Below, piece after piece: positions 10,647-59,067 of a DNA stretch of 64,000 nucleotides. A program made the position numbers and the translations under genes. Positions within the stretch are counted from its first letter, which is position 1, and every line of letters begins with the position of its first letter. Source of the stretch: Naegleria gruberi (lineage: Eukaryota); NCBI GenBank assembly GCA_000004985.1, contig GG738889.1; one strand, written 5' to 3'. The notes below the pieces were generated by a model. The model was not told the origin of the DNA. It worked only from the letters and a program-made list of their open reading frames with translations, and ran no database searches.

Positions 10647-11484
10647 TTTGTGATAGATATTTTCTTCTGTATTCTTTTTACGTATTTTACGTAAAAGATA
10701 GAGAACAATTTCAGATTCTTAGATTTTTGCAACTGAATAGTTTGTAATAGACTGATTTGATTACATTTGTTGAGCGAATGATGGAAAAGAAGGCCAGTTT
10801 AGTCCATTTTACTTCCACTTTAAGGAATTTTGATGATTATCGGATATGTATGTTTTCATATTTGAGCTCGAAATGATGATTACAATTTCATATGTGAAAC
10901 TGTCTTTTCAAATCAGAGGAGCCAAAATCATCTCAATTTGTAATAATTCTGTGCTAAATTGGAACGAAAACTAGTTTCATAGCATGACTCAAGATCTTTA
11001 TTTTCCAATCAATTAACACAACTGATTTACCAACATTGAATCATAACGAGAGTAGAATTTTTAGATGTTTTTTTGCACAAAGTGAATAATTATATTATTA
11101 AGCCATCAAGGATTATACATTTACTTACTTGGTTGCTGTCACTTGTTGTAAACAGCGTGAAGCGGTGTGTAAGTGAAAGAGCAGGTGTTACTTTTAAAAG
11201 AACTGGTTTTTAAAAATGGTCTCGATTTTCCAATTAGTGTTGTGTAAATTAATCTCAGACCTACATGAAATTGATCTTGGATTGCTGAGATAATGATTCG
11301 TTTTGTTTGAAATAGTTTTGATTGTGAAAAAGTGTCGCAAATATAGGTCAAACGAATACCAAAGCACCATTTATCCTGCCCCTTCGAATGTTTTTACTTT
11401 CGTTTATTGGATTGATGAAGTTAAATTCTGCAACTAAACATTAGCTGTCTGAATAGCGAAAAACAAATAGAAAAAACAAGATAA

Positions 11485-11982
11485 ATGAAAAATTGGACCA
11501 AAACAACCAGCAGAACAGTTTCCTTCATAGACGAAACTCAAAAGGTGAAGTCTAAAGTGGAGGGAAAGAATGTTGAACCAAAACTTAAAAAAAGATTGAG
11601 AAAAGACTTACAAAACAACAAATTGCTGAAGAATTACTTTGTGTTCCATAATGAAGATCCACAGGGTGATGTGTTTATTTACAAAGTTATCCAAGATCAA
11701 AAAGACGAAACTATTAGAAACCAAGATAAAGTAATCACACGCCACAAGATACCAGTTAAAGCAATGGACATAAATAATACTTCATCAACCAATCCACCTT
11801 TTCATCCAGGCAATCATTCAGATATTCTAAATATTGCAAGTTTCCTCTCCAGTATTCCATTACAATCAGTTGACCAGCTTGATAGAACAACCATTGCATC
11901 CTTGTTTGGGCTAGATGCTACTAATCATGAAACTACACATCTATCTTATTGTAATCAAGACAATGAATCCACTTTTTTATGA
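11485..11982 (+). CDS. hypothetical protein, possibly continuing into a second exon to about 12217
   Basis: ATG-initiated 165-aa ORF with a basic N-terminus. A candidate 42-bp intron (GTAATC...AACAG) at about 11947-11988 would join it in frame to the 11990-12217 ORF. No family recognised. Confidence 0.3.
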   Translation: MKNWTKTTSRTVSFIDETQKVKSKVEGKNVEPKLKKRLRKDLQNNKLLKNYFVFHNEDPQGDVFIYKVIQDQKDETIRNQDKVITRHKIPVKAMDINNTSSTNPPFHPGNHSDILNIASFLSSIPLQSVDQLDRTTIASLFGLDATNHETTHLSYCNQDNESTFL

Positions 11983-15100: not shown

Positions 15101-16728
15101 TGATCTTTCATCCTTGTCATAGTTGAAACGAACCACACGTTCATATTCAAGTATATCAACCTTTTGACTAGCATCAACAGCTTCATAACGTTGCTTTAAA
15201 GTTCTTGCTTGTTCATCATCAATTGGATGTGAGTATTTCCAAGCACATTGTTCCAAGATAGCGGTTGTCCAAGAGGCAATTAATTTCATACCTTGTTCAG
15301 TCATATCTTTAGCTTTTTCACGCATTGGTTGAGGAATAATTGTTAACAATTCTTGACTTGTTGGAGAATCCTTGATCAATTTCTTCATACGATTGATATG
15401 AAGTTTATAATTTTTAGTGAAATTTTGGAAATCAAATCTCATCTTTGGAATTTGATTAACAAGAAGGAATTGTTTTTGTAATTGTTCTTCTTCCTTTTGA
15501 GAGAGAGACCAATCCTTTTCTTGTAAATTTGGACAATTCTTTAAAACTGTCTTGATAGAGAATGTCATATCACCATATAATGGAATATTTGGATATGATT
15601 TGAAAATCTTGTTAAATCTACCCATACTGTTGGATCCAACTTTTCTCAAATAGTTATTCTTTGAAGTATCCTTGTTATCAATGAGATACATTCCAAATAC
15701 CAAAACACGAATTAATGTGTGTTTTTGATCACAGAACAAATATTGATGATCTTCAAAATTTTCAGAGCATCTTTCCATCAATAGAATGATAATATCTTCA
15801 TATCCAGCATTCTTTATCAGAGAATCTTTGAGACCAGAAATGATAGTATTATTGTTTGATAAGAAATTATAAAGAAGACCATATTCTTCACTCTTTGTAT
15901 CTAAGAAATTCAATTGTTCTTGTGTTAAACCTTCCTTGTCCATGAATTGAGCAGCACGTCTAACAGTTGACATGTCGTTGTTAATGGCTGCTTTCATGTT
16001 TTTGAGAGCATCCAACTTGAGGATTGTATCTAAAACACTAATCATATAATCAAACATGGTTTCACTAGGAATTTCCTTTCTCTTTTCATTAGCAGCCATT
16101 TCAATCATAATCTTTGTGAGTGTTTTGACGGTATTTGTGTGAAAAGCCATCAAATCACGAATCTTTTTAATTTCTGGTTCCAAAACATCGAAAAACTTTC
16201 TATATAATTCAGCCTTGTTTTCAGAATCTGCTTGAATTTGAGGAAGAGCACGTGAAATTGAACGATAAGTGTACAAGGTTTGAATAAAGTATTCACCAGT
16301 TTCTATTATTTCTTGCTATTATTATTGTAAGTGTTATTGTTAGTGATAGTGATGTTATTATTATAGTTGCGATATTTGATGGTTTTGTTGTTGTTATTCG
16401 AAATGGTGGAATCGAATAATATTTGTCATCAACAATTTGTGATTATTATATAATAAATAGTAAAATAAAGATCATAATTGTGAATGTAATATTAAATAGA
16501 AGCAGTGTGAGATTAGTCTAATCATGAGAACAAACCTACCAAAATTTGAATATGTTCAGCTTCTTTAGCAAAACGAGTAGTATAACCACAACGATCAGCA
16601 AAATTGAGTGGACTTGTAAAAGCACCAGTTTCGTAACTAATATAATCTGATGCTGCTTCAATGGTTGGCTGATTAGACTCAACCATGTAAGAGTTGAGTA
16701 CTTTCAATCGTTGCTTGGTATTGTCCAT
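12173..16728 (-). CDS. CYFIP: cytoplasmic FMR1-interacting protein (CYFIP/Sra-1/PIR121, WAVE/SCAR complex subunit). Two exons at about 16728..16540 and 16315..12173.
   Basis: Exon 1, MDNTKQ...NFADRCGYTTRFAKEAEHIQIL, aligns to the CYFIP N-terminus ([21 protein letters not shown]). A 224-bp intron (GTAGGT...AATAG) follows. Exon 2, QEIIETGEYFIQTLYTYRSISRALPQ..., aligns along the whole length of metazoan CYFIP1 and includes conserved blocks such as QFPIEMSLPWILTE and YDEIEAEVNL. It ends with a roughly 120-aa non-conserved Pro-rich tail. Confidence 0.9.
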
Positions 16729-17479
16729 TGTGTAGATGGAAGATTATTGAATAATATTGATGTACAATTTGATGGGATCTTCTTGTTGCGAAAAGCGCAG
16801 AGTAGAAATTTGGTGGGAAGGAAGAAGGGAAGGGATTTTTTTTTGTGATAGGTTAACTTGGGAATGACAGATGAATGTTTTGACAACTACTGTTCGTTGA
16901 TTGTTTTGTGCTGGAAGGTAAAATTGTGAACAAAAAATGTGTGAATTATTAAGAAGGGAATGTCATTTTGTGGTTATCTTTTCAATTTTATGAAATCAAT
17001 AATAATTGAAATTAGTACTTTAAAAATATTAATATTTCGTTCTCATTTGGTATTGATAATGATTAATATTTAGCATGTTTGATAGGGCCCAATTTGATCC
17101 TTTCTCATTCAATTTCGGGATGAAATATGGTGTAGGGACCGGAGGGCGAAAATAGTGTTGTTGTGATGAAGCAAATTCCATTTGGGGAAGATTTTAAGGT
17201 AGCAGAAAATTCACAACGTTAGAAACCAACATTTTTTTATGGTATGCCTTACTGTTTGTGTTGAGCGTCTTAAAGGAGAAGTAGCTGTTCCTTATTAAAT
17301 CCATGAAGGGTAGAATTTTTCTTGTTGCCCTTTACCTCCCGTATAAAATTTCCAGATCAATGTTTGATCAAAATCGCGAAGCTTTTTGGTTATGGGTTTT
17401 ATTGAAGTTTGATATCTGGGATCATTGGTTTTGATATTGAGTTTGCTAAGTGATGTACAGATTCTGGACCTGTGATTCA

Positions 17480-19240
17480 AAATAAAAAAATAAAAGGATC
17501 AAAACTGAGTACCAATGTAGACATCAAAACTTGATACCAAAATTGTTGTAAATAATTGATAATTTATTCAATTTTGACTTGTCAAAATTAACAAGTCGAA
17601 AATTTACAAGTTGAGGTAAGGAGAAATTACTACTCTTCACATCATGAAGTGATTCTATCTAATGATTAAACAATATGATTCAGACTTTTCGCATTCTATG
17701 AAATGATTCTATAGGATTGAGTTCTAATGAAAATAAACCATATGAATCATGTCCAATAATGAGATTCGTTCATATCCAAAATGAATCAATCCAATCCTAT
17801 TCATTTAATGATTTCCAATCAAACTTGAGAATGTAATTAACAATTAGTAAATTGAAAAGTTGACTTACAATGACCATTCACTTGTTGGAGATGATCTATC
17901 CAATAATGATTCTTCTCTTGATTTAATACAAGAACAATTACTTTACAAAATACAACAATTACTTACTAGTCATTATATATTGTCAATGCATTGATCCTTC
18001 TGATTGTTATTAATACAATTCAAATGTGAATGATTAACATTGCACTAATGATAAACCTACCTTACATGAATCAAGTCATTACATTGTTACATAATCTGAA
18101 ATACTTAAACTGCTGCGACCACTTTGATTATTAAATGTTGAGTGATATTATACTTACAAAAGAGTTCCACACATTTATCATGGTCAATATACTGTTATTG
18201 TTATATTATTGTTATTAGGAAATTGTACAGGAAAACCTACATTCTGATTGAAATAAATCTACACTTTACCAATTAAAATAGATCGTTTAAATTCTGATAT
18301 ATTAGTCATGATGATATTCTCATTTACTACTTACAGTGTTAATATTGAAGAGATGTATTTCTGAAAAGAGAACAAGTCTTAATAATTAATTATTCGTGAT
18401 ACTTACATTTAAGCAATTGAGAGTGGTATTTGTGCAACAATGAGGGTACAAACGTGTCGTCAAAGTTAGCAAGCAAAAAACACCAGGACCTTTGATAGCA
18501 GAGTTGCAACTTCCTACCCTCTGTGGTTTGATCTGATTCGGAAGCTGTTCTTGTTTTTGTTGTTGATGATGAATCGTCCTGTTGATCAACTATAATAATG
18601 ATGATGATCGGAATATCACAGGCTTAAATAAATACATACTAGTCGATTCATCCAATTCATATTAGTTCAAAACTACTATATCGATTTACCAATCCTTGAT
18701 TGTCCAATGTAAATACTATAGTTGAGCAACCTGTTACGCAATGATTTCCTTGTACGATACCTCCTCGAATACAAAGTAGTATGCCATTTTTTTAAGGTAA
18801 AAATAGCCTTTGATTTTACAAAGGGAATTGGCGGGATCTGACAACATTCTTAAATCTATTAAGGCCACTTGTCCCAACCTGCTAGCTGGCAACTACCAAG
18901 AAGTGTCGGAATTGTATTTGGCAATGCTGCAATCAATGTTGATGAAGATGATAACGTGTGGAGATCTTACTGTTGTTGATCCATAACTGTTGATAATGGT
19001 CATTTTGAGGATGATGATGAATGTTTGGATGAAGAGTGTGGCAAAGCATAACCTTCATAAATTGGAACAGTGGCAGGCACCATCACCAGAGTCCAAAACA
19101 ACACCAGTAGTTCAACTAGAAGCATACAAGGACAAGACAGCTTGAATAGCAACATACATAGCTGAAACTGAGAAGGTTTCAAAATACGTACAGGTAAGTG
19201 TGTCTAATTATCATTCATCTTCATACTGTGCTGTAGTAGG
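17480..19240 (-). other. putative unannotated multi-exon (non-coding or micro-exon) transcript in a long intergenic gap
   Basis: There are at least five exact GTAAGT donor consensi (ACTTAC on the plus strand) and several near-matches spaced about 95 bp apart between 17860 and 18410. One intron is a perfect GTAAGT...TTTTCAG, and a GTAAGA...TTGCAG intron lies near 18955-18998. A small hydrophobic ORF sits at 19000-19182. No long ORF is present. Confidence 0.2.
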
Positions 19241-19605
19241 ATTGTAATCTTACTCTTGAATAAAGCTCTTATTCTATCCACAAGAGTAAGGATTCAAAGT
19301 TGTTATTCAGCATGTTTTCAGTAGCAATGAATCAGGGAATTTTTCAGAGTCGAATTTTGATTCAGCTATTGGATCAAAACTCTCTATCAAATCAATTTGA
19401 TCCTCGAAAAATTTAATTCGGATCACAACTCAACATCAAATTGTTTATTTTTCAAAATTTGATATTGAGTTTTCACAAACTGACCATCAAAAATTTTATA
19501 CGGGACGCAGTATTATTAAGATTTAAAAAAAGGCTTTTTGGAATGACCAACAACGCTTTGAATAACAACAATACCAACACACTATTTTTAGCGAACACAC
19601 GGAAG

Positions 19606-22600
19606 ATGTGGTCGTCTTCAATGGTATATTGTGTTCTTATTTTAATGTTGATAATATACTTTATTGAGGCTACGGAATCAACAATAACGTGCAATAACAT
19701 TGATAGCAACTTGAGTAATGTTTGCTCAGGAAATGGAATTTGTATTTCCAATAATGTTTGTTCGTGTTATGTTGGTTTTGATGGAGCTGCTTGCGATACA
19801 CCAAGAACTATTCAGAATTTATTTGCAGGATACTCTGTCTTATCAAGAAATTCTTCAATATCATCCAACAAAATAATTAATTTATTTGGAAATGTTGCAA
19901 ACACTCCCTCATCGTCTCAACTCTATACTAATTTCAATATAACATCAGGTATTACACATGATGGAGATGTCTATGCTTCTCATTACATTAACCAAGCAGA
20001 ACAATACTTTAAACAATTAGACAACCTTCCTTGCGATTTTACTCTGAGATCATCTCCCCGTATTGGTAGAATTGAGGTTCGTTATGGAGGTGTTGGTTGT
20101 TTTGAGGCTGGTTGGACTGGTCCATCAACAGTGGTTATTAAGGGCTCTCAACGAGTAGTTTTCAAGATTAAGGGTAATTTCATTACCAATGAAATAACCT
20201 TTGCTCTCTCCAAATGTGCCTCAGAGAATAATATTTACTGGCTTGTGAATGGTAATACAAAGATAACTAACAATTTTAAGGGAATTCTGAAAACTGCTGG
20301 AAAGGTCGATATCACTAATGCTAACATTGATGGAACATTGTTCATTAATAATACCTCTGCGACTTTTACAAATGTAACCTTTGGACCTGTCTCCACATTT
20401 GATCCATATCAGTCATTAACTAACTCTGAGTGCTCTCTTTCTTCTTGTTATGGAATCCTTTCCAATGAAACATCTGTTTGTGCTGGTGTAGGTTTATGTT
20501 ACGATGACAATGCCTGTTTTTGTCCATTGGGATATGGACAAGATTGTTCATTACCTTTGTGTTATGGAGTGCTTCAAAACTCTGCTAGCGTATGTTCTGG
20601 CAACGGTAATTGTACAGGACCAGATACATGTGAATGCAAAGAAGGTCATCTGGGATTGAATTGTTCAATTTCTCTCCCACCTTGCTATGGAATTGGAAAT
20701 GATACCAGTCGCATTTGCTCAGGTGTTGGAAATTGTACATCGAAAGGAGTGTGCAGTTGCCCTGATGGATATGGATTTGATTGCTCAGTACCCATTTGTA
20801 ATGGAGTGCTTGCCTACAACAAAGCATGCAGTTCTCATGGTACATGTATTGCCCCTAACAGTTGCTCATGCTCATCTCATTATCATGGAGACAATTGTGA
20901 GCTTACTACATGTTTCGATATTCCATCAGATAATTCCACGACTTGTTCTGGAAATGGTGACTGTATAGATTACAATCGCTGTAGATGTTTTGATGGGTAT
21001 CAAGGAAGTGATTGTGGTCAGTTGACAACTACAATAATCTACGAAAATATCACAATCTATGAGAATGAAACCATATGGATTGAATATAACACCACAGAAT
21101 ATATCAATGAAACTATATATATTCGTCAAAATCAAACAGATGTAGTAATTGATGATGGTGCAATTATATTTACACCAAACCCTACAGGATCTAATCCAAT
21201 TACTTTCAACACAACTAGAGTCAATGTCACTATTATTACCTACTATAATGCAACCTCAAATTCTACTACCACAGTGACAACAACTACAACAACTGTTGTC
21301 GTGTATACCACAATAGTGTGTAGTAAATCCCTTAATTGTTCCAATCATGGAGAATGTAATTCCAATGGAGCTTGTACTTGCTATTCAAACTTTGATACTG
21401 GTTTTTGGTCAGGTTCTAGTTGTAACACTTGTAGAGATGGATTCCATGGTAATAATTGTGCTACAAAGGTTGTTGGACCTGCTTACATATCCAATGATTT
21501 CACAGGAGTTACGTTTTATCTTTATGCACCAAACTCTTACACAAGTAATCAAATAAGCTGCAACAAACTATTACATCCTGATGATATCAGTAGTAACATG
21601 TTTGGAGATGCAAGCAAAATACAATGTAGCTATGTAGATAGGGCTAGCTACTTGTTTATGATTACTTTTGGGTCTAATGATTATGTATTTAATGCTGGTG
21701 CGTCTAACTTACGTATTAACACTCATGTATTTGATCAGAGTGCAGGTTCTGCAGATTATCTTTCAATGATTATCAATCTACCACAAGGATTTTCTGGTCC
21801 AGTAGCCAAGATTTCAATGGCGTTTACTTCAACATACAGCTCTTGCGAAGAAATTGTAATTGATGGTTCAGGAAGTACTGCACCATATGGAGGTAGTCTT
21901 ACATATTACTGGACTTTGCTTAATGCAGCTACAATGCAGGTTTTATCGACAAACTTTGCAAATCAACCAAAAATTACTCTTCCAGCTTCATTAAGTTCTG
22001 GAAGTTACCAAGTATCTCTGAAAATTCAAGGTGAATTCTTACATCTTTCCAGTGCAGTAGTACACACAGGAACATTCACTAAAGCTCCAAAACCTGTTCC
22101 AGTAATAACTTTTTACAAAGGAAATACCCAGCTAAGGTATACTAATCAATTCCCATATACAATCAAAAAAGTAATCGAATCTCCTTGTAGAGACTCAAAT
22201 AATACAATAGTACGTTGGGAACAACTAAGCGGACCATCTATTGAGTACTCAGTGGACTCCTATAACAATCTATACATCCCAAAACTCAAAACATTTGGAA
22301 ACAATAACTATACATTTAAGGTATCCGCTTATTATACTGATGCAAATTATCAAGGTTCTAGTGATTTTGTTTTAATTACACAATCACCTCCTTTGAGTTT
22401 AGAACTTTATCAAGCTGAAGCAAAGACTGATCACTCGACTGTTGAGGTTATTTATTCAGACCCAGAATCTGCTTTAATCTCAAAAAGTGAAACATGGACT
22501 TGGTCTAGCTTGGATTATCAAGGACCAAGATTATATACATTTTTAACTACCCAATCCAATCAAAAATCTTCTAGTCTTTACTTGACATCCAATTATTTTG

Positions 22601-25038
22601 ATCCTGTGCCAGCAATGGTCACAATTCAATTAAGAATTGAAAAATCTGATGGTAGATTTGTACAAAAGTCTTCAATTGTTCGATTTGGTGCTGTTGCTCC
22701 TTCTTTCAACGTAATCAGTCAACAACCAAACACAGCTTACTTAAAACCAGGCTCTCCAATTACAATCCATTCATTGGTTTCTTCCTCTTCAACATCTGTG
22801 TTTGTTTCTTGGAGATTAAACAATGAAATGATTTCAACTACTAAGACAATAATTCAATCAAACTGGGGAAGACAAATTAATCAGGTTATGTTTGACACCT
22901 CAAATCTTGTGGATGGTACAACAAACACAATCACAGCAGTTGTTTCAGATTCAAGCACACAAGGAACAAGTACAACCACAATAGTTGTGCAAGTGGCTAA
23001 ACGTCCATCCCTTTGTGCATGTGATATTACTCCATCAGTTGGTATTGCTATGGAAACACAGTTTTCTTTCGGTTGTACTCAATGCAAAACAACCGACAAC
23101 AATGTTGACTATAATTATGGATTTATAGATGACAGGTCTGGAATGAAGGTGTCTCTGTATAAACTCGGAGAAGTATTTTCATCTACTTTACCAGCTCCAT
23201 TGAATGGAAATACCCTTACTTGTTATATTGACATAATTGATACTGTGACCGGAGGATCGGTTAACATGACAAAGAAAATAACAGTCAACAAACAATCAAC
23301 AACAAGCTTGTCTGAAATTCAAACCTTGGTAAAGTCTTGGACTGATACCGTAAATCAATACTTGAAAGACGGACAAATCAGTAAGAGTTTCTACATGACA
23401 GCAACTTTCCTAAGAACCGATACAGTGCTAGTTAGAGAAGCAATTAAGGTTCTTGCTTCAACTTCAAGAAGAGATATTGTTTGCTCTCATGGTGTTGAAG
23501 TATCTGGAGTTTGTAAATGTGCAGACGGTTATGTTGGTACTAACTGTGAGGTTCCAATATTTGGTTACAGTCAAAGCCAGTCTGTAAAATTAACAGCCTT
23601 TACAAACATTATTAAGCTTTCTAATTCATCTTATGACATCATCAATGATGAGTATTTTACTCTTTTAGTTTTCTCAATAGATTCTGTTTTGGAAAATTAT
23701 GAGTATCTAGAGAAGAAGACTGTTGGACAAGCCCTTGACACTCTGAACCTATACCTTACAAGTGTAGTTGCTATTGATGACTTTAACTTGCCAAACGGAG
23801 TAGAAATTCTTTTGAAAAACATTATTCAAAACACTTATATTTACGTCGTTGAAAAGCAAATGTTCACAGACCAAACAGAAAACTCAAAAAAGTTGCTTAT
23901 TCTCCTCACTTTAACAACAACTCTCATGTCAAGAACCATTTCTTATGGAAGTTCTTCTAGCGTATTCAAAACTCAATATTTTTCATATACAATGAATAAG
24001 TATTCAATTTACGATTTCCCTCCAATTGTGTCAGATAACTCAAGAATATGCCAAATTATTGTTGAAGGGCTGTTTTTCTCAAATGCAAAATCAACAAAAC
24101 TTTACAGACAACCATTTGGTTTTGTTATGACTGTGTCAGATGACGTTTTCCAATTAGGACCAACTATTGGATTGCAAAAATCAACTAAAGAAAACATTCA
24201 AGCAAGTTCCTCACTGGTTTCTCCTATTATGTCCTTATCATTTAATGGGTTGACTGCTCCTGTTGATTTTAATGGTATCATCTATATTCTTCCAATCAAC
24301 AAGACAACTACCTTTAAGATATTTGATCAAGGAACTTTTGATTATGTTGAATCTGTAACTGAATATACATGTAACTCTTTTAAGGATTCACCAGAAGCAA
24401 TTACCAAATGTAAGCTTGTTGAAATGAATGCAACCCACACAAAATGTAGTTGTTCTACCCTGGGTAATGTCTTTGTAATGGAAACCACAACAATTACAAA
24501 ATATTCCCTTACAATCTTTGTGATTATGGGAGCTTCTATTATTGTAATAGGTAGTGCTATAGTCACAATATTCTCATTCTGTTGCTGTTGTTGCCGTTGT
24601 GTTGTGATAGGAAGAAGAAGATTCTCTGAACGTCATAGCGAGGCAAAGATAGTTCGTGTTAAGCATGATGTTAGAGCAATGTTTTTGGAAAAACCAGGTA
24701 CAAATGACTTTGTTACAACAGAAAGAGTTCAACTAAGGAATGATAACAATAAGGTTACAAGAACTATTATAACTACAGACCCTCTCTTAGTTACAAATAA
24801 CACAAAGACAGTTGTTATGCAAAGCCCAAGAATGTACACAAAGGAAACAACCTATGTTACCAAAACTCATCATCACCAAGGAGGACAAACAGTTGTTTTT
24901 GATACACCTAGACCTGAAGTTGTCATAGCATCTCGCCCAAGGGTTCTTGAGGAAATTGTAACCAATCGACCAGTTGTTGTGAGAAGAAATCAAGTTCAAC
25001 CAATGGATGTTGAACTTGTTGAGAGAAGAAGATATTAA
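19606..25038 (+). CDS. large EGF/tenascin-like repeat type I transmembrane glycoprotein
   Basis: The likely start is at 19606 (MWSSSMVYCVLILMLIIYFIEA), which looks like a signal peptide. The track ORF starts upstream in frame at a non-coding Met. The mature protein has more than ten C-x-G-x-G-x-C...C-x-C-x-x-G-(F/Y)-x-G-x-x-C EGF-like modules and very many N-x-S/T sites. It also has a Thr-rich mucin-like stretch and a single TM (IFVIMGASIIVIGSAIVTIF) followed by a Cys-rich juxtamembrane and a short cytoplasmic tail. Confidence 0.8.
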   Translation: MWSSSMVYCVLILMLIIYFIEATESTITCNNIDSNLSNVCSGNGICISNNVCSCYVGFDGAACDTPRTIQNLFAGYSVLSRNSSISSNKIINLFGNVANTPSSSQLYTNFNITSGITHDGDVYASHYINQAEQYFKQLDNLPCDFTLRSSPRIGRIEVRYGGVGCFEAGWTGPSTVVIKGSQRVVFKIKGNFITNEITFALSKCASENNIYWLVNGNTKITNNFKGILKTAGKVDITNANIDGTLFINNTSATFTNVTFGPVSTFDPYQSLTNSECSLSSCYGILSNETSVCAGVGLCYDDNACFCPLGYGQDCSLPLCYGVLQNSASVCSGNGNCTGPDTCECKEGHLGLNCSISLPPCYGIGNDTSRICSGVGNCTSKGVCSCPDGYGFDCSVPICNGVLAYNKACSSHGTCIAPNSCSCSSHYHGDNCELTTCFDIPSDNSTTCSGNGDCIDYNRCRCFDGYQGSDCGQLTTTIIYENITIYENETIWIEYNTTEYINETIYIRQNQTDVVIDDGAIIFTPNPTGSNPITFNTTRVNVTIITYYNATSNSTTTVTTTTTTVVVYTTIVCSKSLNCSNHGECNSNGACTCYSNFDTGFWSGSSCNTCRDGFHGNNCATKVVGPAYISNDFTGVTFYLYAPNSYTSNQISCNKLLHPDDISSNMFGDASKIQCSYVDRASYLFMITFGSNDYVFNAGASNLRINTHVFDQSAGSADYLSMIINLPQGFSGPVAKISMAFTSTYSSCEEIVIDGSGSTAPYGGSLTYYWTLLNAATMQVLSTNFANQPKITLPASLSSGSYQVSLKIQGEFLHLSSAVVHTGTFTKAPKPVPVITFYKGNTQLRYTNQFPYTIKKVIESPCRDSNNTIVRWEQLSGPSIEYSVDSYNNLYIPKLKTFGNNNYTFKVSAYYTDANYQGSSDFVLITQSPPLSLELYQAEAKTDHSTVEVIYSDPESALISKSETWTWSSLDYQGPRLYTFLTTQSNQKSSSLYLTSNYFDPVPAMVTIQLRIEKSDGRFVQKSSIVRFGAVAPSFNVISQQPNTAYLKPGSPITIHSLVSSSSTSVFVSWRLNNEMISTTKTIIQSNWGRQINQVMFDTSNLVDGTTNTITAVVSDSSTQGTSTTTIVVQVAKRPSLCACDITPSVGIAMETQFSFGCTQCKTTDNNVDYNYGFIDDRSGMKVSLYKLGEVFSSTLPAPLNGNTLTCYIDIIDTVTGGSVNMTKKITVNKQSTTSLSEIQTLVKSWTDTVNQYLKDGQISKSFYMTATFLRTDTVLVREAIKVLASTSRRDIVCSHGVEVSGVCKCADGYVGTNCEVPIFGYSQSQSVKLTAFTNIIKLSNSSYDIINDEYFTLLVFSIDSVLENYEYLEKKTVGQALDTLNLYLTSVVAIDDFNLPNGVEILLKNIIQNTYIYVVEKQMFTDQTENSKKLLILLTLTTTLMSRTISYGSSSSVFKTQYFSYTMNKYSIYDFPPIVSDNSRICQIIVEGLFFSNAKSTKLYRQPFGFVMTVSDDVFQLGPTIGLQKSTKENIQASSSLVSPIMSLSFNGLTAPVDFNGIIYILPINKTTTFKIFDQGTFDYVESVTEYTCNSFKDSPEAITKCKLVEMNATHTKCSCSTLGNVFVMETTTITKYSLTIFVIMGASIIVIGSAIVTIFSFCCCCCRCVVIGRRRFSERHSEAKIVRVKHDVRAMFLEKPGTNDFVTTERVQLRNDNNKVTRTIITTDPLLVTNNTKTVVMQSPRMYTKETTYVTKTHHHQGGQTVVFDTPRPEVVIASRPRVLEEIVTNRPVVVRRNQVQPMDVELVERRRY

Positions 25039-25158
25039 GTTCTATTGATAAATTGATATTTTTTTCAAACTTTTTCTGTTGTGGCAACAATTTTAAACTA
25101 TTCCAATTATTATGAGACAAGAAGATCTTGTAAAAATCTATCTTCACATCATTAAAAA

Positions 25159-26571
25159 ATGCAACAAGAGGAAAACACATCTCTCCTTTCACACAATATT
25201 GATGAGTTACAATCCTTTCACACCAACACACCAAATCTATCATCATTAAATCATCAAAAAACACCCGATGAAGGAAATCCTGCCACCACGGAAGAAATAG
25301 AATCACTTTTACATCAAAATTTACCACCTCCTGGTAAATCATCAGCACTTGATGTTGTATTTAATATTAGTAATTGTACAATTGGAGCAGGCGTTTTAGC
25401 AATACCTTTTGCATTCCATCAAAGTGGAATTTTATTGGGATGTTTCATTTTGCTATTTGTTTGTGTCATTTCAACATTGACATCTCAGTTTCTGTTGAGG
25501 GCTTGTGAAATCTCAAAACAACCAACCTATAAGGAAATTGGTATGAAAGCTTTTAAGGGAAACAAGATTGCTGGCTTTATAATTGATATTTCAATGATTG
25601 TATTTTGTTTTGGAGTTATGCTTGGATATACTTCAATTGTTGGAGATTATTCATCAAGTTTATTTAAAACTATTTATTCTGATTATTATTGGCAAGGAGA
25701 AAATGTTAATTATGATAACATTCTATTCTCTAAAAACTTTAATAGCTTTTTATTAATGATAACTGTCATGTTACCTTTGAGTTGTTTCAAAAGAATTGGA
25801 TTTTTGTTTTTTACTTCCTATTTCACAATAGTTTGTGTATTGTATACTTTATTTGTCATAATGTATGGTTTCTTTTCAAAAGTTACAACACTTGATAAGA
25901 GAATTGACCATAGTATTACTTTATTTCAATCATGGGAAAGTTTTTCACAGGTTTTTGTTGCTTTTCCAGTTTTATTCTTTTCATTTGGTAATACTGTTAC
26001 ATTGATTCCAATTTATTACGAATTGAAAAATAAGAATCAGAGAACTATGACTCATGTCATTAATGGAGCTTCAGTTCTCTGTTTGATTTTCTATCTAATT
26101 ACTGGAATATTTGGTTATATTCAATTTGGAGATAATAGCATTAAGGAGAATATTCTAAACTCATTTAGAAAACACAATGTAATGGTAATATTCGCCAAAT
26201 TAGCAATGATTATTGTTTCTGTCATTTCCTATCCGCTTGTTCATTTCCCTGCAAGACAAAATGTTGAACAGCTATTATTCCCAAATAGACCATTTTCTTA
26301 TATTAGATGGATTATTGAGGCAGTTGTGTTTGCAACCTTAACCTTACTAGTTCTATTAATTCCTTTCGATTTGGTTACAATATTTGGAATAACTGGTGCC
26401 AGTGTTGGAATGATGGTCATGTTTATTTTCCCATGTGTATTCTATGCAATTCTTGAGACCAATAAGAAGAAGAGAGCTTTTGCTATTGTGGTTGCTTGTA
26501 TTTGCTTGATTTTAGGAGTAATTTCATCTGCTAGTGTTATTGCTGACTTTGTCCAGAAAATGTCTCAATAA
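25159..26571 (+). CDS. amino acid/auxin permease-family (Aa_trans, SLC36/38-like) transporter
   Basis: ATG start with about 11 predicted TM helices. A conserved N-terminal NxxNxxIGAGVLAIPFAF motif is characteristic of the AAAP family. Confidence 0.8.
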   Translation: MQQEENTSLLSHNIDELQSFHTNTPNLSSLNHQKTPDEGNPATTEEIESLLHQNLPPPGKSSALDVVFNISNCTIGAGVLAIPFAFHQSGILLGCFILLFVCVISTLTSQFLLRACEISKQPTYKEIGMKAFKGNKIAGFIIDISMIVFCFGVMLGYTSIVGDYSSSLFKTIYSDYYWQGENVNYDNILFSKNFNSFLLMITVMLPLSCFKRIGFLFFTSYFTIVCVLYTLFVIMYGFFSKVTTLDKRIDHSITLFQSWESFSQVFVAFPVLFFSFGNTVTLIPIYYELKNKNQRTMTHVINGASVLCLIFYLITGIFGYIQFGDNSIKENILNSFRKHNVMVIFAKLAMIIVSVISYPLVHFPARQNVEQLLFPNRPFSYIRWIIEAVVFATLTLLVLLIPFDLVTIFGITGASVGMMVMFIFPCVFYAILETNKKKRAFAIVVACICLILGVISSASVIADFVQKMSQ

Positions 26572-39799: not shown

Positions 39800-42700
39800 T
39801 CAATCCTCTTCATCTGTTTCCCAATCATTGTCGCTATCTACCTCTGGATTTTCGTTATCATGGAGGAGAGGATAATTTGTGGCAATGCTAATTAATGCCA
39901 AGCAACAGTTTACAGTGTATTCATAAAAGATTTCTCCATCAACCTCAATTTCTCTATGTCGATATTGAGATCTATCCACTTGGAACGAGAAGGGCTCCAT
40001 CGAATGCAAAGTCTTTTTTGTGATATCCATGGATTCAGTGTTAAACTCAGAATTGGCGAATACTGCTTTGATGGTTATTGATTCTATACCATCTTGTCTC
40101 TCTTTGTAAGTAAATGAACAGAGTGATAGTCCAACACGTGATTTCTCTTTCAAGAGTTTGGTTTCTATTGATAATTGTTAAAATAATGCTTGAAATCTGC
40201 AATACTTACTTTGGGGATTGTCCATTGCTGTGAACCGAGGTGAGAATTTGACTCCAAATGCTTCAAATTGATCACTATAGCAGACCTTTCCAACATTTTC
40301 AGGTCTTAAGCGAAAGACAATTGTGTGTATTGAAATTGGAAATTCTGAAGCCATTCTGTGAATTAATGGAGGATAGTTTGTTGTAGACAATTCCTTTCTT
40401 CCTTTGTGGAATGACTCTATATCAACTTGATGATTTGCTATTGGTGTATCAGTAATTTGCTTCATTCCAATAAAGAATTTAAATATGAGAAATTCCTCAT
40501 CCCTTGTTGAGAATGGTTCAACATATTGCTTCTCTACAAATAACCCGTAACTCGAAAGTATCATGTCAAATTTACGAGAATATATTAGATAAGAACTAGC
40601 ATCCATGTCAAAATTTCTAATAGAAAATTCTATTCTAATTCTGTCGAATTGACCTGTTTCTTCATTATGATTAATTGTTGAATTGAGTGTCAAAAATATT
40701 GAACAATTTCCATAATCTTCGTCTTCATCTACAGGGAGAAATTCAACCATCCACTCATATCCACATTCAATAAAAGGGTCAGAGACATAAGTAGTATTGA
40801 AAGGGCCTGTCTTTGGAACCTTTACAGTTACTAGGTGAAGAGCGTGGTCTTTTTTGGAAATATTGGTTTTGGCATAATCCAATAAATCTTCGGTACTCAT
40901 TTGTCTCAACTCTTCTGTTGTGTTAGGTATTGATATTGGAAGTCCACTACTGGTATCACCAACAAAAATGGATTTTTTCTTTAAAATAGCTTCTAATGTT
41001 TTCTTGGATATCTTGAAAGGATTTTGATGAGTTAACAAATCTATAAAGTCTGAAATATAGGTAAATTCAGGGCAGTTGTCTGCAATCGTGTTAATTATAT
41101 TTACAAATAAATTTCCAGAGTAATGAGATATTTCTTTGTTTCCACTAAAGAATTCATTCAACAACCTTTGGACCAGATCTTTCAAGCAATCCTCATATTC
41201 TACATCAGTACCAACAGTTTCTAACAAACTGTCAAAATCATAAAAAAAAGAAAAGTCATTCAAATCTATCAAAATATTGGCCACTGTATAAAGACTTTGT
41301 TGCGATTCAATCGACCTTAAAACTTTTTTCAAAACCTTATTGTAAGACAAATCAAATGAAATCGATTTAGATTTCCATAATTGATCCAACATTTGGAAAA
41401 CTGAGTCTATGTCATCACGTTTCCATAACGAATCTGTATATGTGAATGTTATTAAAAATAATTTGAAAATCTCTGCACTCTCTGAATAATTAATTATCTT
41501 TTCTCCTGAATAATAGAAAAGTCTTTGAATTGCCAGGCTTGCATCTTTCATTTCTCGTACACTGATTCTTTGTTTGGTATAGGAAACAACTTGCTCAATG
41601 TTTTCATAATTAAGCTTTGGGTAAAACTTTCTACTCTCAGGATACGGGTGCTTAAAAATAATAGTTATCCTTGGATTATCATGTTCAAAACTAGAAAAAA
41701 TGGAACTAGTAATGGATGGATCATAACTATTTAGTAGTAGAGTTCTGCACCTTGTGAATTGCGAAAGATAATAAGTTGATTCAATAGTCAAAGCTTTTTC
41801 CTCGTTATATAGTATTTTGAGAATTTCCAATCTTTCTTTTAAATATGGTACTATGCCCTTGATAAAATCATCTTTGATTGAACAGCAGTTGAAAGATAAT
41901 GTTCTCAGATTTTCGGCAGAGAGCAGGGCTTCTAATAATCCATCTTCCAACCCCGTAAACTTAACATCCTCTCCACAAACAAATCCAATATTACCTAGTG
42001 ATTTTGGAAGTCTTAATTCGTTGAAATCTTGAATAGTTTCAGTCATTTCAATTTTTAGACTTGTCAAATTCACTAAATCTTTCAAATTTTTCAAATGATT
42101 ACGCGTTGGACTGTTAACGATAATATCCAGAAATTTTAACGATATTGGTAGAAAACCAATGCATGAGGTAAAAATAGATGATCCGTATACCTTTTCCAAA
42201 CTGTAACTTCTTAATTCTTCTAAACTACTGCTCACTGTACTCTCTGTTAATGACCCACTAAGCTTCAAAACATGTAAACTTTTCATAGAATCTTTCAAAA
42301 AAACAAATTGATTCTCTTCTGACAATTCCTTGTCGCACCATTTCAGTTTTTCCAAATTGCTACCCGTCATCAAGTTGATTAGAATTTCTTTGTAATTCTC
42401 TAAATTAAAACCACCAAAAATTGATACAGACTTTAAACTTAAATTGTTTAGACTCTCAATAAGTCTTTCATTTTTGATTTCTAATGAAGGATAATCCATA
42501 AAATCCAAGTGTAACGAAGTGAGTTTGTTGTGTCTAATTATAAATGTCAGTAGAGGATCGATTACAGCTGATGATTCTCCATCATTAAAGAATATTCTCA
42601 ACTTATCTAATGTTGGAATAAACAAAGACCTTTGTAAACTTTTAACCTTTGGATTATCTGTAAATGGCCAATAAATTCTAATCTTTTTCAAGCATGGGAA

Positions 42701-51096: not shown

Positions 51097-52963
51097 TTAC
51101 TCTCTAAGTACGAATAGATCACCATAATTTTCAACCAGATATTTCCATTGCAAATCTGTTAATCCAATTCCTAATTGCAAAGTTTCACTTGTATTTCCAT
51201 GTAAGAATGCATGATGAAGGAAATCCATCTTTTCAAAGTTGACCATTCCTCTTGGTTGGCCCAAAATTCTAAAATTGATATCATTTAAAAAGTCATACTT
51301 CATCCAATTTGTCATTGAGAAGGTAATCCTTGCATCATCAATAATTACCTTATATCTGTCCATGTGTTCTTCATCGTGGTAGGATTTACTCATCTCTTGA
51401 ATAAATCTTTCAGTTGCCTTTTCAGTATTTTGTTCATTAACTTGCTTTCTAACTTGCATCACTAGCTCTGCAAGTGACATCTTTAGGATTTCGCTCTTCT
51501 TTTGAGAGATCCAAACATTCGAAAGAGGATTGCCAATATACATTTTAGTGTCATCTCTGATTGGAGGATAATTAAATCTAAAGTTGCATACCATTCTAAA
51601 GGAGAGAGTAGTTTCCCCTGGTTGACTTGGGTCTGCGTGAGCCATCATTGAAAAGAGAATTGCTGAAATAACATCATTGGTTGATACAATTGAATTGTTT
51701 GGAGTGGAATTTTTGATTTTCTGTTTGAGAATTTCTAATTGTTTTTTGGAAATGTTAATTCTTCTAGCTTTGGCTTTGTATTGACGAAGACAATTAATCA
51801 TGTTAAAGACATATTTGTGGAATTTGTAAAATTCCTGATGAGAATAGGTAATATTTGGACTAAAAAACAATTAATTACATCATGGTATCTATACTTACTC
51901 AATCTTTTCTTTTGGTAATATCAAGTTGACTCTTGACATGGTTGGTAATTGAGTTGGATTTTGTTGACATGTCATCTCAGCCCAAAATTTCATAAAAAAG
52001 TGTCCAACTTCAGCTCCACCAACAGAATGATTCAATGCAAGTGCAATAACAGGTACAATTCTTCCATTTTCCAATTTAAGAAATGAAATTTGTATTCTTG
52101 ACAATTCCTTTTCCGAATATGGTGATTTAATTTCTGGTTTAAATACCAATTCACTCTCCATTTCCAATAAATCGCTTTCATCCTCAACTTTTCCAACTTG
52201 CTTTTCAATAATTGCAACATTTAACATTGGATTTTCCACTACAATCTATTCGCACCTAAAGCAAGGATTAGGAAACGATTCTTTTTGGCTTGCTTTTCTC
52301 GTCGCACATGTTTTTTGTTTCACACTAATTTTTTGTTTTAGCTCATTTCTTGCTTTAGTATCTTTCTGAGGTGTGTAGTTTGTAGTGATGATAAATAACC
52401 AAAAATGGTTTCTGTCTCCCTTTTACCAAATTTCTCTCCTCTTCAGAAAGTAGAGCCAAATCCTTTTCATCCATTGGATTTAAATCTCTATATCTTCCTC
52501 CAACTGTTGGAAAATAGAAAAGAGTCCTTTCCAATCCTTCAATTAACATTTTTTCACACTCAACCAAATCTTCCTCATCAATTTCATTAAAATACACAGA
52601 ATATGGTACATAGGAAGTTCTAAATCTAGCATAGCCATCATTGAGAGTTAGAATTGTACATTTCTTTTGATACATTTCCAATAAATTCTCATCACAATTT
52701 TCCACATTTGGAATTTTTGAATGAACACTAACAATTTTCACTTTCTTTGATGGATATTCACTCGATTGTGAAAGTATCAGATCAGAAATACTAGTTTCAG
52801 GTTTGTAAGTTGCCATCTTCCAAACAGTATTCATCACCAACCAATCTAAAATATTGCTAAATGTCAATTGTCTAAACGTTCCTTGTTTTTTCCATAATGA
52901 CCACATCATGATCACTGCAATTGCTCCTCCGGTGAGGCAAACACCCAACACAACCAACAACAT
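51097..52963 (-). CDS. BAHD/HxxxD-type acyltransferase-family-like protein with N-terminal TM anchor. Three exons at about 52963..52427, 52245..51899 and 51859..51097.
   Basis: Exon 1 gives a TM helix plus ...LERTLFYFPTVGGRY, which matches the LxxxLxxFYPLAGRL block. Exon 2 contains LALNHSVGGAEVGHFFMKFW, which is the HxxxD(G) catalytic block with Asp replaced by Gly. The exon 2/3 junction is a GTAAGT...TTTTTTAG intron in phase. The exon 1/2 junction is tentative (GTAAAA donor). Confidence 0.45.
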
Positions 52964-58896: not shown

Positions 58897-59067
58897 TTTT
58901 TATTATTAATTAAAATAATGACATGATGTTGTGAATTTCTAGAAAATAGTGGCCGTTTGTTTATACGGATAAATGATATTAATGATATCATAGTCATCAT
59001 GTGGATAATTAATTAAGAATAATTAAATATTTAATTTTTTTTATAATAATTTTGAATTTGAAAAAAA

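What the first reader, a model, noticed from the sequence alone, without database searches (positions are those of the whole stretch)
16900..19600. Anomalously long 2.7 kb non-coding gap with periodic GTAAGT donor signals, probably an unannotated spliced transcript
Elsewhere in the window intergenic spacers are 100-500 bp. Between the divergent CYFIP and EGF-repeat genes, however, there are 2.7 kb with no ORF longer than 70 aa. On the minus strand the hexamer GTAAGT (ACTTAC on plus) occurs at least five times exactly, at 17866, 17958, 18150, 18332 and 18403. Close variants (GTAAGG, GTAGGT) occur at 18054 and 18232. That gives a spacing of about 95 bp, whereas less than one exact occurrence is expected by chance in AT-rich DNA of this length. 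Several are followed 40-50 nt downstream by textbook acceptors, for example GTAAGTATCACG...TTCTCTTTTCAG and GTAAGATCTCC...GATTGCAG. The inferred exons are 25-50 nt and full of stop codons. This pattern fits a multi-exon non-coding RNA (for example a snoRNA-host-like or lncRNA gene) or a micro-exon gene. Two other sub-features are present. First, a tract at 17640-17830 carries about eight degenerate copies of (A)TGATTC/TGAATC every 20-30 bp. Second, a minus-strand ORF at 19000-19182 encodes a hydrophobic 60-aa peptide. A plus-strand GTAAGT...CTGTAG intron-like element at 19188-19238 may be a 5'-UTR intron of the EGF-repeat gene.
Basis: seen in the sequence. Interest (0 to 1): 0.6.

Follow-up and report, generated by a model that had tools for sequence, protein, structure and literature searches.

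The report
Splice-donor array in Naegleria non-coding gap
A 2.9 kb non-coding stretch of the Naegleria gruberi genome holds a dead fragment of an actin gene and a statistically real row of seven evenly spaced splice-donor motifs. These look like a chain of tiny introns in an unannotated non-coding transcript, but whether that transcript is made could not be tested here.

Summary
The window is Naegleria gruberi, not a dictyostelid. The gap (16729-19605) and the EGF-repeat gene lie between two genes that are direct neighbours in two other Naegleria genomes. The donor cluster is real. GTA[AG]G[TG] occurs 8 times on the minus strand in 17860-18410, against 0.29 expected (P about 1e-9). It never exceeded 5 in 300 dinucleotide shuffles. 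Spacing is regular, at 72-99 nt.

Each donor is followed by an AG 41-66 nt downstream. That length range and the base composition match confirmed introns of this window (39-77 nt). The mini-exons are 26-53 nt and closed in all frames. No spliced ORF beats shuffled controls, and no protein in 5.8 billion matches the region.

I rejected a micro-exon coding gene, a snoRNA host gene, mirtrons, a spliced-leader array and a tandem repeat.

The best reading is an unannotated, non-coding, multiply spliced minus-strand transcription unit, or its recent remains (confidence 0.45). No RNA or comparative data could be reached, so splicing is inferred, not shown. Interest is moderate.

The parts
16729..19605 (.). 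Non-coding gap between the CYFIP start codon and the annotated EGF-repeat gene start. It is the left part of a stretch of about 8.4 kb that is absent between the same neighbours in two other Naegleria genomes.
   Evidence: No ORF exceeds 68 aa. The six-frame Pfam scan finds only Actin. The six-frame composite query finds no protein at E<=1e-3 among 5.8 billion. Synteny: CYFIP and the Aa_trans gene are 450-575 bp apart in L001 and L002, but lie at 16728 and 25159 here.
19033..19204 (-). Actin pseudogene fragment (actin residues 118-175), with one in-frame stop and one frameshift.
   Evidence: tblastn E 1e-14, 67-83% identity. Pfam Actin E 8.5e-8. Frameshift-tolerant alignment scores 193 against 29-52 for shuffles and does not extend further.
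18361..18406 (-). Intron-like unit A, 46 nt: GTAAGTAT...TTCTCTTTTCAG.
   Evidence: It has 8 consecutive bases complementary to the canonical U1 5' end (read from the sequence).
18294..18334 (-). Intron-like unit B, 41 nt: GTAAGTAG...GACTAATATATCAG.
   Evidence: A CTAAT branch-point-like motif lies 13 nt before the AG.
18192..18240 (-). Intron-like unit C, 49 nt: GTAGGTTT...CCTAAT...AACAG.
18096..18157 (-). Intron-like unit D, 62 nt: GTAAGTAT...GTATTTCAG.
18000..18065 (-). Intron-like unit E, 66 nt: GTAAGGTAGGT...ATTAATAACAATCAG.
17917..17966 (-). Intron-like unit F, 50 nt: GTAAGTAA...TTAAATCAAG.
17824..17868 (-). Intron-like unit G, 45 nt: GTAAGTCA...TACTAAT...TCTCAAG.
19204..19253 (-). Further intron-like unit upstream on the same strand, 50 nt: GTAAGATT...GATAATTAG. 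Its 3' end falls exactly where the actin homology begins.
18927..18970 (-). Further intron-like unit, 44 nt: GTAAGATCTCC...GATTGCAG.
17640..17830 (.). Tract of degenerate short repeats rich in GA(A/T)TC, in both orientations.
   Evidence: 6 copies against 0.65 expected (P 6e-5), the densest in the window. Repeat families D7 and D10.
19371..19505 (+). Promoter-like module of the EGF-repeat gene. It holds copies of AAACTCAAYATCAAA / TTTGATATTGAGTTT in both orientations and GGATCAAAACT, and ends in AAATTTTATACGGGA 111 nt before the ATG at 19606.
17337..17541 (-). Second, outward-facing module with the same motifs. These include a perfect 15-nt copy of AAATTTTATACGGGA, 115 nt upstream of an ATG at 17232 that sits in the genome's typical A-rich start context. 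That ATG opens only a 12-codon ORF.
   Evidence: (I4, D1, D8).
19194..19238 (+). Plus-strand intron-like element, 45 nt: CAG|GTAAGTGT...CTGTAG. It lies antisense to the 5' edge of the actin relic. Its use is unknown.

Best explanation
The gap is non-coding DNA specific to the N. gruberi lineage at this position. Its minus strand carries a chain of at least seven very short spliceosomal-type introns, and probably nine. They are 41-66 nt long and are separated by non-coding mini-exons of 26-53 nt.

The most likely reading is an unannotated, multiply spliced, non-coding transcription unit. It would run from about 19300 to about 17550, starting next to the EGF-repeat gene's promoter module and heading away from that gene. 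It passes through a fragment of a dead actin gene, which would be one of its exons.

**Shown:** the motifs, their strand, their spacing, the match in intron size and composition, the absence of coding capacity, and the actin relic.

**Inferred:** that the region is transcribed, that U1 snRNP recognises these sites, and that the introns are removed. The motifs are kept although the about-90-nt units share no other similarity. That argues either for selection on the motifs or for independent origin. It argues against neutral decay of a repeat.
For: - **Clustering.** 8 donor-like motifs lie in 551 bp on one strand against 0.29 expected. The shuffle maximum is 5. Related loci reach at most 3.
- **Spacing.** The sites are evenly spaced (P about 5e-5).
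- **Extended U1 match.** 4 of the 7 GTAAGTA on the whole minus strand lie in the array. Two sites are GTAAGTAT, a full 8-nt match to the canonical U1 5' end.
- **Local intron size.** Confirmed introns of this window, which join long ORFs, are 39-77 nt with GTAAGT, GTAGGT or GTATGT donors. The candidates are 41-66 nt.
- **Composition.** Candidate introns are A .37, C .13, G .10, T .41. Real introns are A .36, C .12, G .09, T .43. The gap as a whole is 32% GC.
- **Branch points.** CTAAT-type motifs occur in 3 of 7 units (read from the sequence).
- **Same-strand extension.** Two more GTAAGA...AG units lie upstream on the same strand. One ends exactly at the edge of the actin homology.
- **Not a repeat.** Units are no more alike than random pieces, and there is no autocorrelation at lag about 95.
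- **Non-coding.**
Against: - No RNA evidence and no orthologous sequence could be obtained.
- The base before the donor is T in 6 of 7 sites, but G in most confirmed introns.
- The acceptors are CAG in 5 units and AAG in 2. Eight of the eleven introns inferred in this window end in TAG, three in AAG and none in CAG.
- AG dinucleotides are frequent in this AT-rich DNA, so an AG at 41-66 nt is weak evidence.
- No promoter specific to this unit was identified. Use of the EGF module in both directions is a guess.
- One intron per 90 nt is far denser than the genome average of 0.7 introns per gene (PMC8296547).
Confidence: 0.45

Rival explanations
1. Fossil splice sites. The array is the remains of a transcription unit that is no longer expressed, either a degenerated gene or its untranslated part. 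It would have been carried in with the EGF-repeat gene when this stretch arrived.
For: - The stretch is lineage-specific at this position.
- It contains another dead fragment, the actin relic.
- It contains two good start contexts (AAAAAAATG at 17232 and 18787) that open only 12- and 17-codon ORFs (D9, 57, 69).
- The two variant donors, GTAAGG and GTAGGT, are each one substitution away from GTAAGT.
Against: - The mini-exons are closed in all frames and match nothing. They were therefore never recently coding.
- Under neutral decay the hexamers should have degraded as much as the surrounding sequence, which shows no similarity between units.
Confidence: 0.2
2. Chance or a compositional by-product. 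One example would be decayed (GTAA)n / (TTAC)n microsatellite seeds in AT-rich junk DNA. In that case there is no function.
For: - Some sites read as GTAAGTAA or GTAAGTAGTAAA, which look like (GTAA)n.
- If all 4096 hexamers and all positions are tested, a cluster with a local P of about 3e-7 is expected in roughly one 64 kb window in seven (my estimate).
Against: - GTAAGT is a motif specified in advance.
- The degenerate pattern gives 8 sites, and no shuffle exceeds 5.
- The even spacing is an independent oddity.
- TRF finds no microsatellite at these sites.
Confidence: 0.12
3. A non-autonomous DNA transposon of about 2.17 kb (17337-19505). It would have 15-bp terminal inverted repeats and subterminal repeat motifs, and would carry captured host fragments, namely the actin piece and a stretch rich in introns.
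For: - A perfect 15-nt inverted repeat, TCCCGTATAAAATTT / AAATTTTATACGGGA, with 2139 nt between the arms (I4).
- Motifs shared just inside both ends (D1, D8).
- GAWTC repeats near both ends.
- A captured gene fragment.
Against: - No target-site duplication flanks the repeat (read).
- The two end regions do not align beyond the short motifs (score 79 against 57 +/- 8 for shuffles, maximum 86).
- There is no transposase homology and no other copy in the window.
- The repeat contains a TATA-like TTTATACGG that also lies 108 nt upstream of an unrelated gene's ATG. This points to a promoter element instead.
Confidence: 0.1
4. Plus-strand small RNA genes. The signals would be box C/D snoRNAs read on the other strand, where CTGA (the D box) is the reverse complement of the TCAG acceptors.
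For: - Weak Rfam C/D matches on the plus strand at 18300-18370 (22 bits, E 0.65) and 18562-18648 (20 bits, E 0.46).
- ATGATGA at 18308 and CTGA at 18361 lie 53 nt apart.
Against: - Both matches are far below their gathering scores of 50 and 38, and nothing reaches gathering score in the window.
- Only one unit has an intact C box. The others read ATGATTA, ATGATAA or GTGATAT and lack the second GA.
- There is no terminal stem.
- This reading gives no reason for ACTTAC to recur.
Confidence: 0.04
5. A protein-coding micro-exon gene on the minus strand.
For: The donor array and short introns. With very loose donors (GTANR) a 268-codon path exists on the minus strand.
Against: - That path uses implausible sites and removes the conserved core of the actin relic. 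Its product is nonsense.
- With realistic donors the best spliced ORF is 94-119 codons, within the range of shuffles.
- The product spliced at the seven units has stops in all frames.
- No homologue exists.
Confidence: 0.03

Closest known systems
Spliced long non-coding RNAs transcribed divergently from a protein-coding gene's promoter
   Same: Position next to, and pointing away from, a gene's promoter module. Canonical GT-AG intron signals. No coding capacity. Lineage-specific. Contains a pseudogene-derived piece.
   Different: About one intron per 90 nt, with 26-53-nt exons. That is extreme for any lncRNA, and especially for a genome averaging 0.7 introns per gene. Transcription has not been shown.
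Ordinary short spliceosomal introns of N. gruberi genes in this window (for example 51898-51860, 40209-40165 and 8535-8480)
   Same: Length of 39-77 nt. GTAAGT or GTAGGT donors followed by A/T. Base composition of about 21-23% GC. TTAAT or CTAAT-like motifs before the 3' end.
   Different: Real introns interrupt long ORFs, mostly have G before the donor, and mostly end in TAG. The candidates lie between non-coding mini-exons, have T before the donor, and end in CAG or AAG.
snoRNA host genes (non-coding exons with snoRNAs in the introns)
   Same: Non-coding exons and multiple introns.
   Different: The introns are 41-66 nt, contain no box C/D or H/ACA signature on the transcribed strand, and have no Rfam match.
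Processed or fragmentary actin pseudogenes
   Same: The segment 19204-19033 is clearly actin-derived and disabled.
   Different: Only 58 codons are present, bounded upstream by an acceptor-like TAG. The rest of the gap is unrelated to actin.
Spliced-leader RNA gene arrays of Euglenozoa (relatives of Heterolobosea within Discoba)
   Same: Tandem units, each with a short exon followed by a consensus 5' splice site.
   Different: The mini-exons here all differ from one another. No Sm-site motif follows the donors. The units are not sequence repeats.

Membership tests
U2-type GT-AG spliceosomal introns | 5' splice site matching the U1-complementary consensus (GTAAGT and close variants) | tested here: met
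   5 exact GTAAGT plus GTAAGG and GTAGGT. 4 of the 7 are GTAAGTA.
U2-type GT-AG spliceosomal introns | Length and base composition within the range of confirmed introns of the same genome | tested here: met
   41-66 nt against 39-77 nt. Composition is almost identical.
U2-type GT-AG spliceosomal introns | 3' splice site and exon-side context like confirmed local introns | tested here: inconclusive
   CAG in 5 and AAG in 2, against TAG in 8 of the 11 introns inferred locally, AAG in 3 and CAG in none. The base before the donor is T in 6 of 7, against mostly G. The reference set is small.
U2-type GT-AG spliceosomal introns | Removal from a transcript (junction reads) | not testable with these tools
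   No RNA data. N. gruberi contigs are not retrievable.
Protein-coding micro-exon gene | An open reading frame across the spliced exons, longer than chance | tested here: not met
snoRNA host gene | snoRNAs encoded in the introns on the host strand | tested here: not met
   No Rfam hit at gathering score. Weak hits lie only on the opposite strand. The introns are 66 nt or shorter.
Box C/D snoRNA (plus strand) | Intact C box (RUGAUGA) and D box (CUGA) with a terminal stem, scoring at family threshold | tested here: not met
   Best match is 22 bits against a gathering score of 50. One intact C box. No terminal stem (and the sequence).
Mirtron | The intron folds into a hairpin that pairs its two ends | tested here: not met
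   Folding energies lie within the range of shuffles, with z from -1.4 to +1.2, and no end-to-end hairpins.
Tandem repeat / minisatellite | Units similar to one another | tested here: not met
   TRF finds nothing. Unit-to-unit scores resemble random pieces. There is no autocorrelation peak at 90-100 nt.
Spliced-leader RNA gene array | Identical mini-exons and an Sm-binding site after the donor | tested here: not met
   The mini-exons differ. No RAU(4-6)GR motif recurs (read from the sequence).
TIR DNA transposon | Terminal inverted repeats flanked by a target-site duplication, with further copies elsewhere | tested here: inconclusive
   A 15-bp perfect inverted repeat is present. No target-site duplication. 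No other copy in the window. Genome-wide copy number is not testable here.
Actin pseudogene | Significant actin homology with disabling mutations | tested here: met
   E 1e-14, with one stop and one frameshift, covering aa 118-175 only.

The most novel reading that the evidence does not exclude
The array is a functional, phased row of consensus 5' splice sites in a lineage-specific non-coding RNA of an intron-poor protist. It could be an intron-dense transcript whose purpose is the act of splicing or the recruitment of U1 snRNP. That might stabilise or extend a divergent transcript, or mark the locus for RNA-based regulation of the neighbouring EGF-repeat gene. The about-90-nt phasing would then be maintained by selection.
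Probability: 0.1. Interest if true: 0.65.

Novelty: new member of a known kind. Interest (0 to 1): 0.35.

Why it matters
N. gruberi is a reference free-living heterolobosean with few introns (about 0.7 per gene), and I found no published catalogue of its non-coding RNAs in two literature searches. A transcript with seven to nine mini-introns in 1.4 kb would be an outlier for intron density. It would be a convenient natural substrate for studying intron-defined splicing of 40-60-nt introns and 26-53-nt exons in Discoba.

It would also show that stretches specific to one lineage can carry spliced non-coding units built partly from gene debris, here the actin fragment.

If the array is not transcribed, the finding is only an oddity in junk DNA. 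The practical gain then is the correction that the "peptide ORF" is an actin relic.

Tried and rejected
1. **Dictyostelid origin.** Rejected. CYFIP is 87% identical to N. lovaniensis, and the EGF-repeat ORF is 100% identical to a N. gruberi protein.
2. **Fetching the N. gruberi locus or a paralogue's locus for annotation.** Not on record.
3. **Orthologous region in relatives.** N. lovaniensis and a Logan Naegleria contig lack the whole stretch. Willaertia is not syntenic. The metagenome scan with the EGF protein gave only a distant hit.
4. **Hidden protein homology.** Pfam on six frames finds only Actin. The six-frame composite against 5.8 billion proteins finds nothing (the first attempt was too long). 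The EGF protein and all long ORFs of the window against the gap find nothing.
5. **Extension of the actin relic into the rest of the gap.** It does not extend.
6. **Spliced ORF search by dynamic programming with three levels of donor stringency.** No better than shuffles. The loose-donor path is an artefact of the donor enrichment.
7. **Structured RNA.** Nothing in Rfam. No tRNAs. The segment 18395-18560 folds worse than shuffles on both strands.
8. **Mirtrons.** Rejected.
9. **Tandem repeat or hidden periodicity.** Rejected.
10. **ACTTAC as a plus-strand branch point with plus-strand introns.** The plus strand lacks usable donors upstream of most sites (read).
11. **ACTTAC as the 5' end of U1-like genes.** No U1 match even at E<=10.
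12. **Direct repeats at the borders of the 8.4 kb stretch.** None found.
13. **Literature on Naegleria splice signals or non-coding RNAs.** Nothing specific was found. Only genome statistics were used.
Full report
**Source and setting.** The window has about 33% GC and is gene-dense. The large minus-strand ORF next to the finding is CYFIP. Its best matches are Naegleria lovaniensis (87%), an unnamed Naegleria contig from a Logan assembly (86%) and Willaertia magna (74%). The plus-strand ORF from 19606 is 100% identical over all 1810 residues to a "predicted protein [Naegleria gruberi]". The window is therefore N. gruberi, not a dictyostelid as the gene content first suggested. Published figures for this genome are 41 Mb, 33% GC, 1.7 exons per gene, 57.8% coding and a mean intron of 203 bp (PMC8296547).

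**The gap in context.** In N. lovaniensis (L001) and in the Logan contig (L002), CYFIP and an amino-acid transporter gene are divergent neighbours 450-575 bp apart. In the window the transporter gene is at 25159-26571. The gap and the EGF-repeat gene together, about 8.4 kb, are therefore present here and absent there. The EGF-repeat gene has no close orthologue. The best N. lovaniensis hit is 46% identical over 11% of the length, and the nearest N. gruberi paralogue is 35% identical. This makes a lineage-specific gain more likely than a loss in the others, but that is inference. A 46-nt block at 16839-16883 is conserved with L002 upstream of CYFIP (85%, E 7e-6). CYFIP's own control region is therefore proximal, and the odd material starts to the right of it.

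**Check of the observation.**
- ACTTAC occurs on the plus strand at 17863, 17961, 18152, 18329 and 18401.
- Against the rest of the same strand the expectation for 551 bp is 0.29, and 8 are seen (P about 9e-10).
- In 300 dinucleotide-preserving shuffles of the whole strand the largest cluster was 5, reached once, and usually 2-3.
- In 74 kb of related heterolobosean DNA the largest is 3.
- ACTTAC ranks 30th of 4096 hexamers for clustering in this window. The 25 strongest, which are the ones listed, are all low-complexity repeats, mostly inside coding ORFs.
- The gaps between sites (98, 99, 92, 83, 94, 72) are far more even than random placement gives (P about 5e-5).

**What it is not.**
- *Not a tandem repeat.* TRF finds nothing. 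The about-95-nt units are no more alike than random pieces. There is no autocorrelation peak near 95.
- *Not a coding gene.* With realistic donors and acceptors the best spliced ORF through the region is 94-119 codons, within the range for shuffled sequence. Joining the seven units gives stops in all three frames. A longer path with very loose donors is an artefact and yields nonsense.
- *No protein homology.* A six-frame Pfam scan finds only Actin. A six-frame composite of 16900-19340, with the actin piece masked, finds no protein at E<=1e-3 among 5.8 billion. That collection includes N. gruberi gene models.
- *Not a known RNA.* No Rfam family reaches gathering score anywhere in the window, and there are no tRNAs. 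The weak C/D-box matches lie on the opposite strand and far below threshold.
- *Not mirtrons.* The candidate introns do not fold as hairpins.
- *Not a structured RNA.* The GC-richer segment 18395-18560 folds worse than its shuffles on both strands.

**The actin relic.** The minus strand at 19204-19033 aligns to actin residues 118-175. Evidence is tblastn E 1e-14, Pfam Actin E 8.5e-8, and a frameshift-tolerant score of 193 against 29-52 for shuffles. It has one in-frame stop (SS*TTG for SGRTTG) and one frameshift, and the homology does not extend on either side. It is not a peptide gene.

**Why the minus-strand intron reading is the best one.** I derived a reference set of introns from the window itself. 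These are GT...AG intervals whose removal joins two long ORFs.
- They are 39-77 nt, with one of 224 nt in CYFIP.
- They start with GTAAGT, GTAGGT or GTATGT, usually followed by A or T.
- They are about 21% GC and rich in T.

Each of the seven donors in the gap is followed by an AG at 41-66 nt. The resulting units have the same composition as the reference introns (A .37, C .13, G .10, T .41 against A .36, C .12, G .09, T .43). The gap overall is 32% GC.

Four of the seven GTAAGTA on the whole minus strand lie in the array. Two sites are GTAAGTAT, which is complementary to eight bases of the canonical U1 5' end. Three units carry CTAAT before the 3' end.

Two further GTAAGA...AG units lie upstream on the same strand, at 19253-19204 and 18970-18927. 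The first ends exactly where the actin homology begins, as if the actin piece were used as an exon.

The alternative plus-strand readings fail.
- Read as branch points, the ACTTAC motifs lack usable donors upstream.
- Read as D boxes, the CTGA motifs lack intact C boxes in all but one unit (and the sequence).

**Reservations.**
- The exon base before the donor is T in six of seven sites, where the reference introns mostly have G.
- The acceptors are CAG or AAG, where eight of the eleven reference introns end in TAG and none in CAG. The reference set is small.
- An AG at the right distance is cheap in AT-rich DNA.
- An intron every 90 nt is more than ten times the density expected in this genome.
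- No RNA data and no orthologous sequence could be reached. Transcription and splicing are therefore inferences.

**Argument for function or recent function.** The motifs are intact or one substitution away from GTAAGT, while the sequence between them shows no trace of common ancestry. Neutral decay of a repeat would not leave that pattern.

**Edges of the gap.** Two short regions share several motifs. These are 17337-17541 and 19371-19505.
- The shared motifs are TTTGATATTGAGTTT and its reverse complement (six copies with up to 3 mismatches), GGATCAAAACT, and a perfect 15-nt AAATTTTATACGGGA that points outward at both ends.
- The core TTTATACGG occurs exactly three times in the window. Each copy lies 108-115 nt upstream of an ATG: the EGF-repeat gene start at 19606, an unrelated gene at 59068, and a minus-strand ATG at 17232 in the A-rich context typical of starts in this window. 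That last ATG opens only a 12-codon ORF.
- I therefore read the two regions as promoter-like modules rather than transposon ends.

The transposon rival has further problems. It lacks a target-site duplication. The two ends do not align beyond the motifs. There is no transposase and no other copy in the window.

That the right-hand module might fire in both directions and drive the minus-strand unit is a guess.

**The GA(A/T)TC tract.** The tract at 17640-17830 is real (6 against 0.65 expected). It consists of decayed short repeats (D7 and D10). I assign it no function.

**Verdict.** A multi-intron non-coding transcript on the minus strand is the best explanation (0.45). The rivals are:
- fossil splice sites of a dead unit (0.2);
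- chance or composition (0.12);
- a non-autonomous transposon carrying captured fragments (0.1, not exclusive of the best explanation);
- plus-strand snoRNAs (0.04);
- a coding micro-exon gene (0.03).

It would be a new member of a known kind, a spliced lncRNA, that is unusual in intron density. Interest is moderate until RNA evidence exists.

Noticed in passing
window 16729-25158: CYFIP and the amino-acid transporter gene are direct divergent neighbours (450-575 bp apart) in N. lovaniensis and in a Logan Naegleria contig. In N. gruberi about 8.4 kb lies between them: the gap plus a 1810-aa EGF/REJ-domain gene with no close orthologue.
   Followed up: partly
window 19495-19503 (+), 58960-58968 (+), 17339-17347 (-): The exact 9-mer TTTATACGG occurs three times in the window. 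Each copy lies 108-115 nt upstream of an ATG (19606, 59068 and 17232). It may be a core-promoter element of a subset of N. gruberi genes.
   Followed up: partly
window 9333, 25159, 26689, 29362 (-), 38106, 53192, 59068: Most confident start codons in the window are preceded by a run of 5-9 A (AAAAAAAATG). The annotated EGF-repeat start at 19606 (cacacggaagATG) and the in-frame upstream ATG at 19543 both lack this run.
   Followed up: no
window 17230-17244 and 18785-18799 (minus strand): Two copies of TACC(A/T)TAAAAAAATG (14 of 15 identical). Each is a textbook start context opening an ORF of only 12 or 17 codons. They could be dead gene starts or upstream ORFs of the putative transcript.
   Followed up: partly
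window 16839-16883: A 46-nt block about 110-155 nt upstream of the CYFIP ATG is 85% identical to the corresponding upstream region in the Logan Naegleria contig (L002 2149-2193). The rest of the intergenic DNA is not alignable. It may be a conserved CYFIP regulatory element.
   Followed up: no
window 17576-17597 and 17563-17568 (minus strand): A 7-bp-stem palindrome (GACTTGT...ACAAGTC) is followed at once by AATAAA. It lies just downstream of the last intron-like unit and the GAWTC tract. It is a possible 3' end of the putative minus-strand transcript.
   Followed up: no
window 10647-11484: A second ORF-free stretch of about 840 bp carries three GTA[AG]G[TG] donors on the minus strand (11128, 11264, 11611, the last lying just past the stretch inside the ORF 11485-11982) and one on the plus strand (11169). 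This is the next-largest donor cluster in the window. It was not examined.
   Followed up: no
window 51860-51898, 40165-40209: Introns inferred from ORF joining can be as short as 39 and 45 nt in this genome. That is well below the published mean of 203 bp for N. gruberi gene models.
   Followed up: partly
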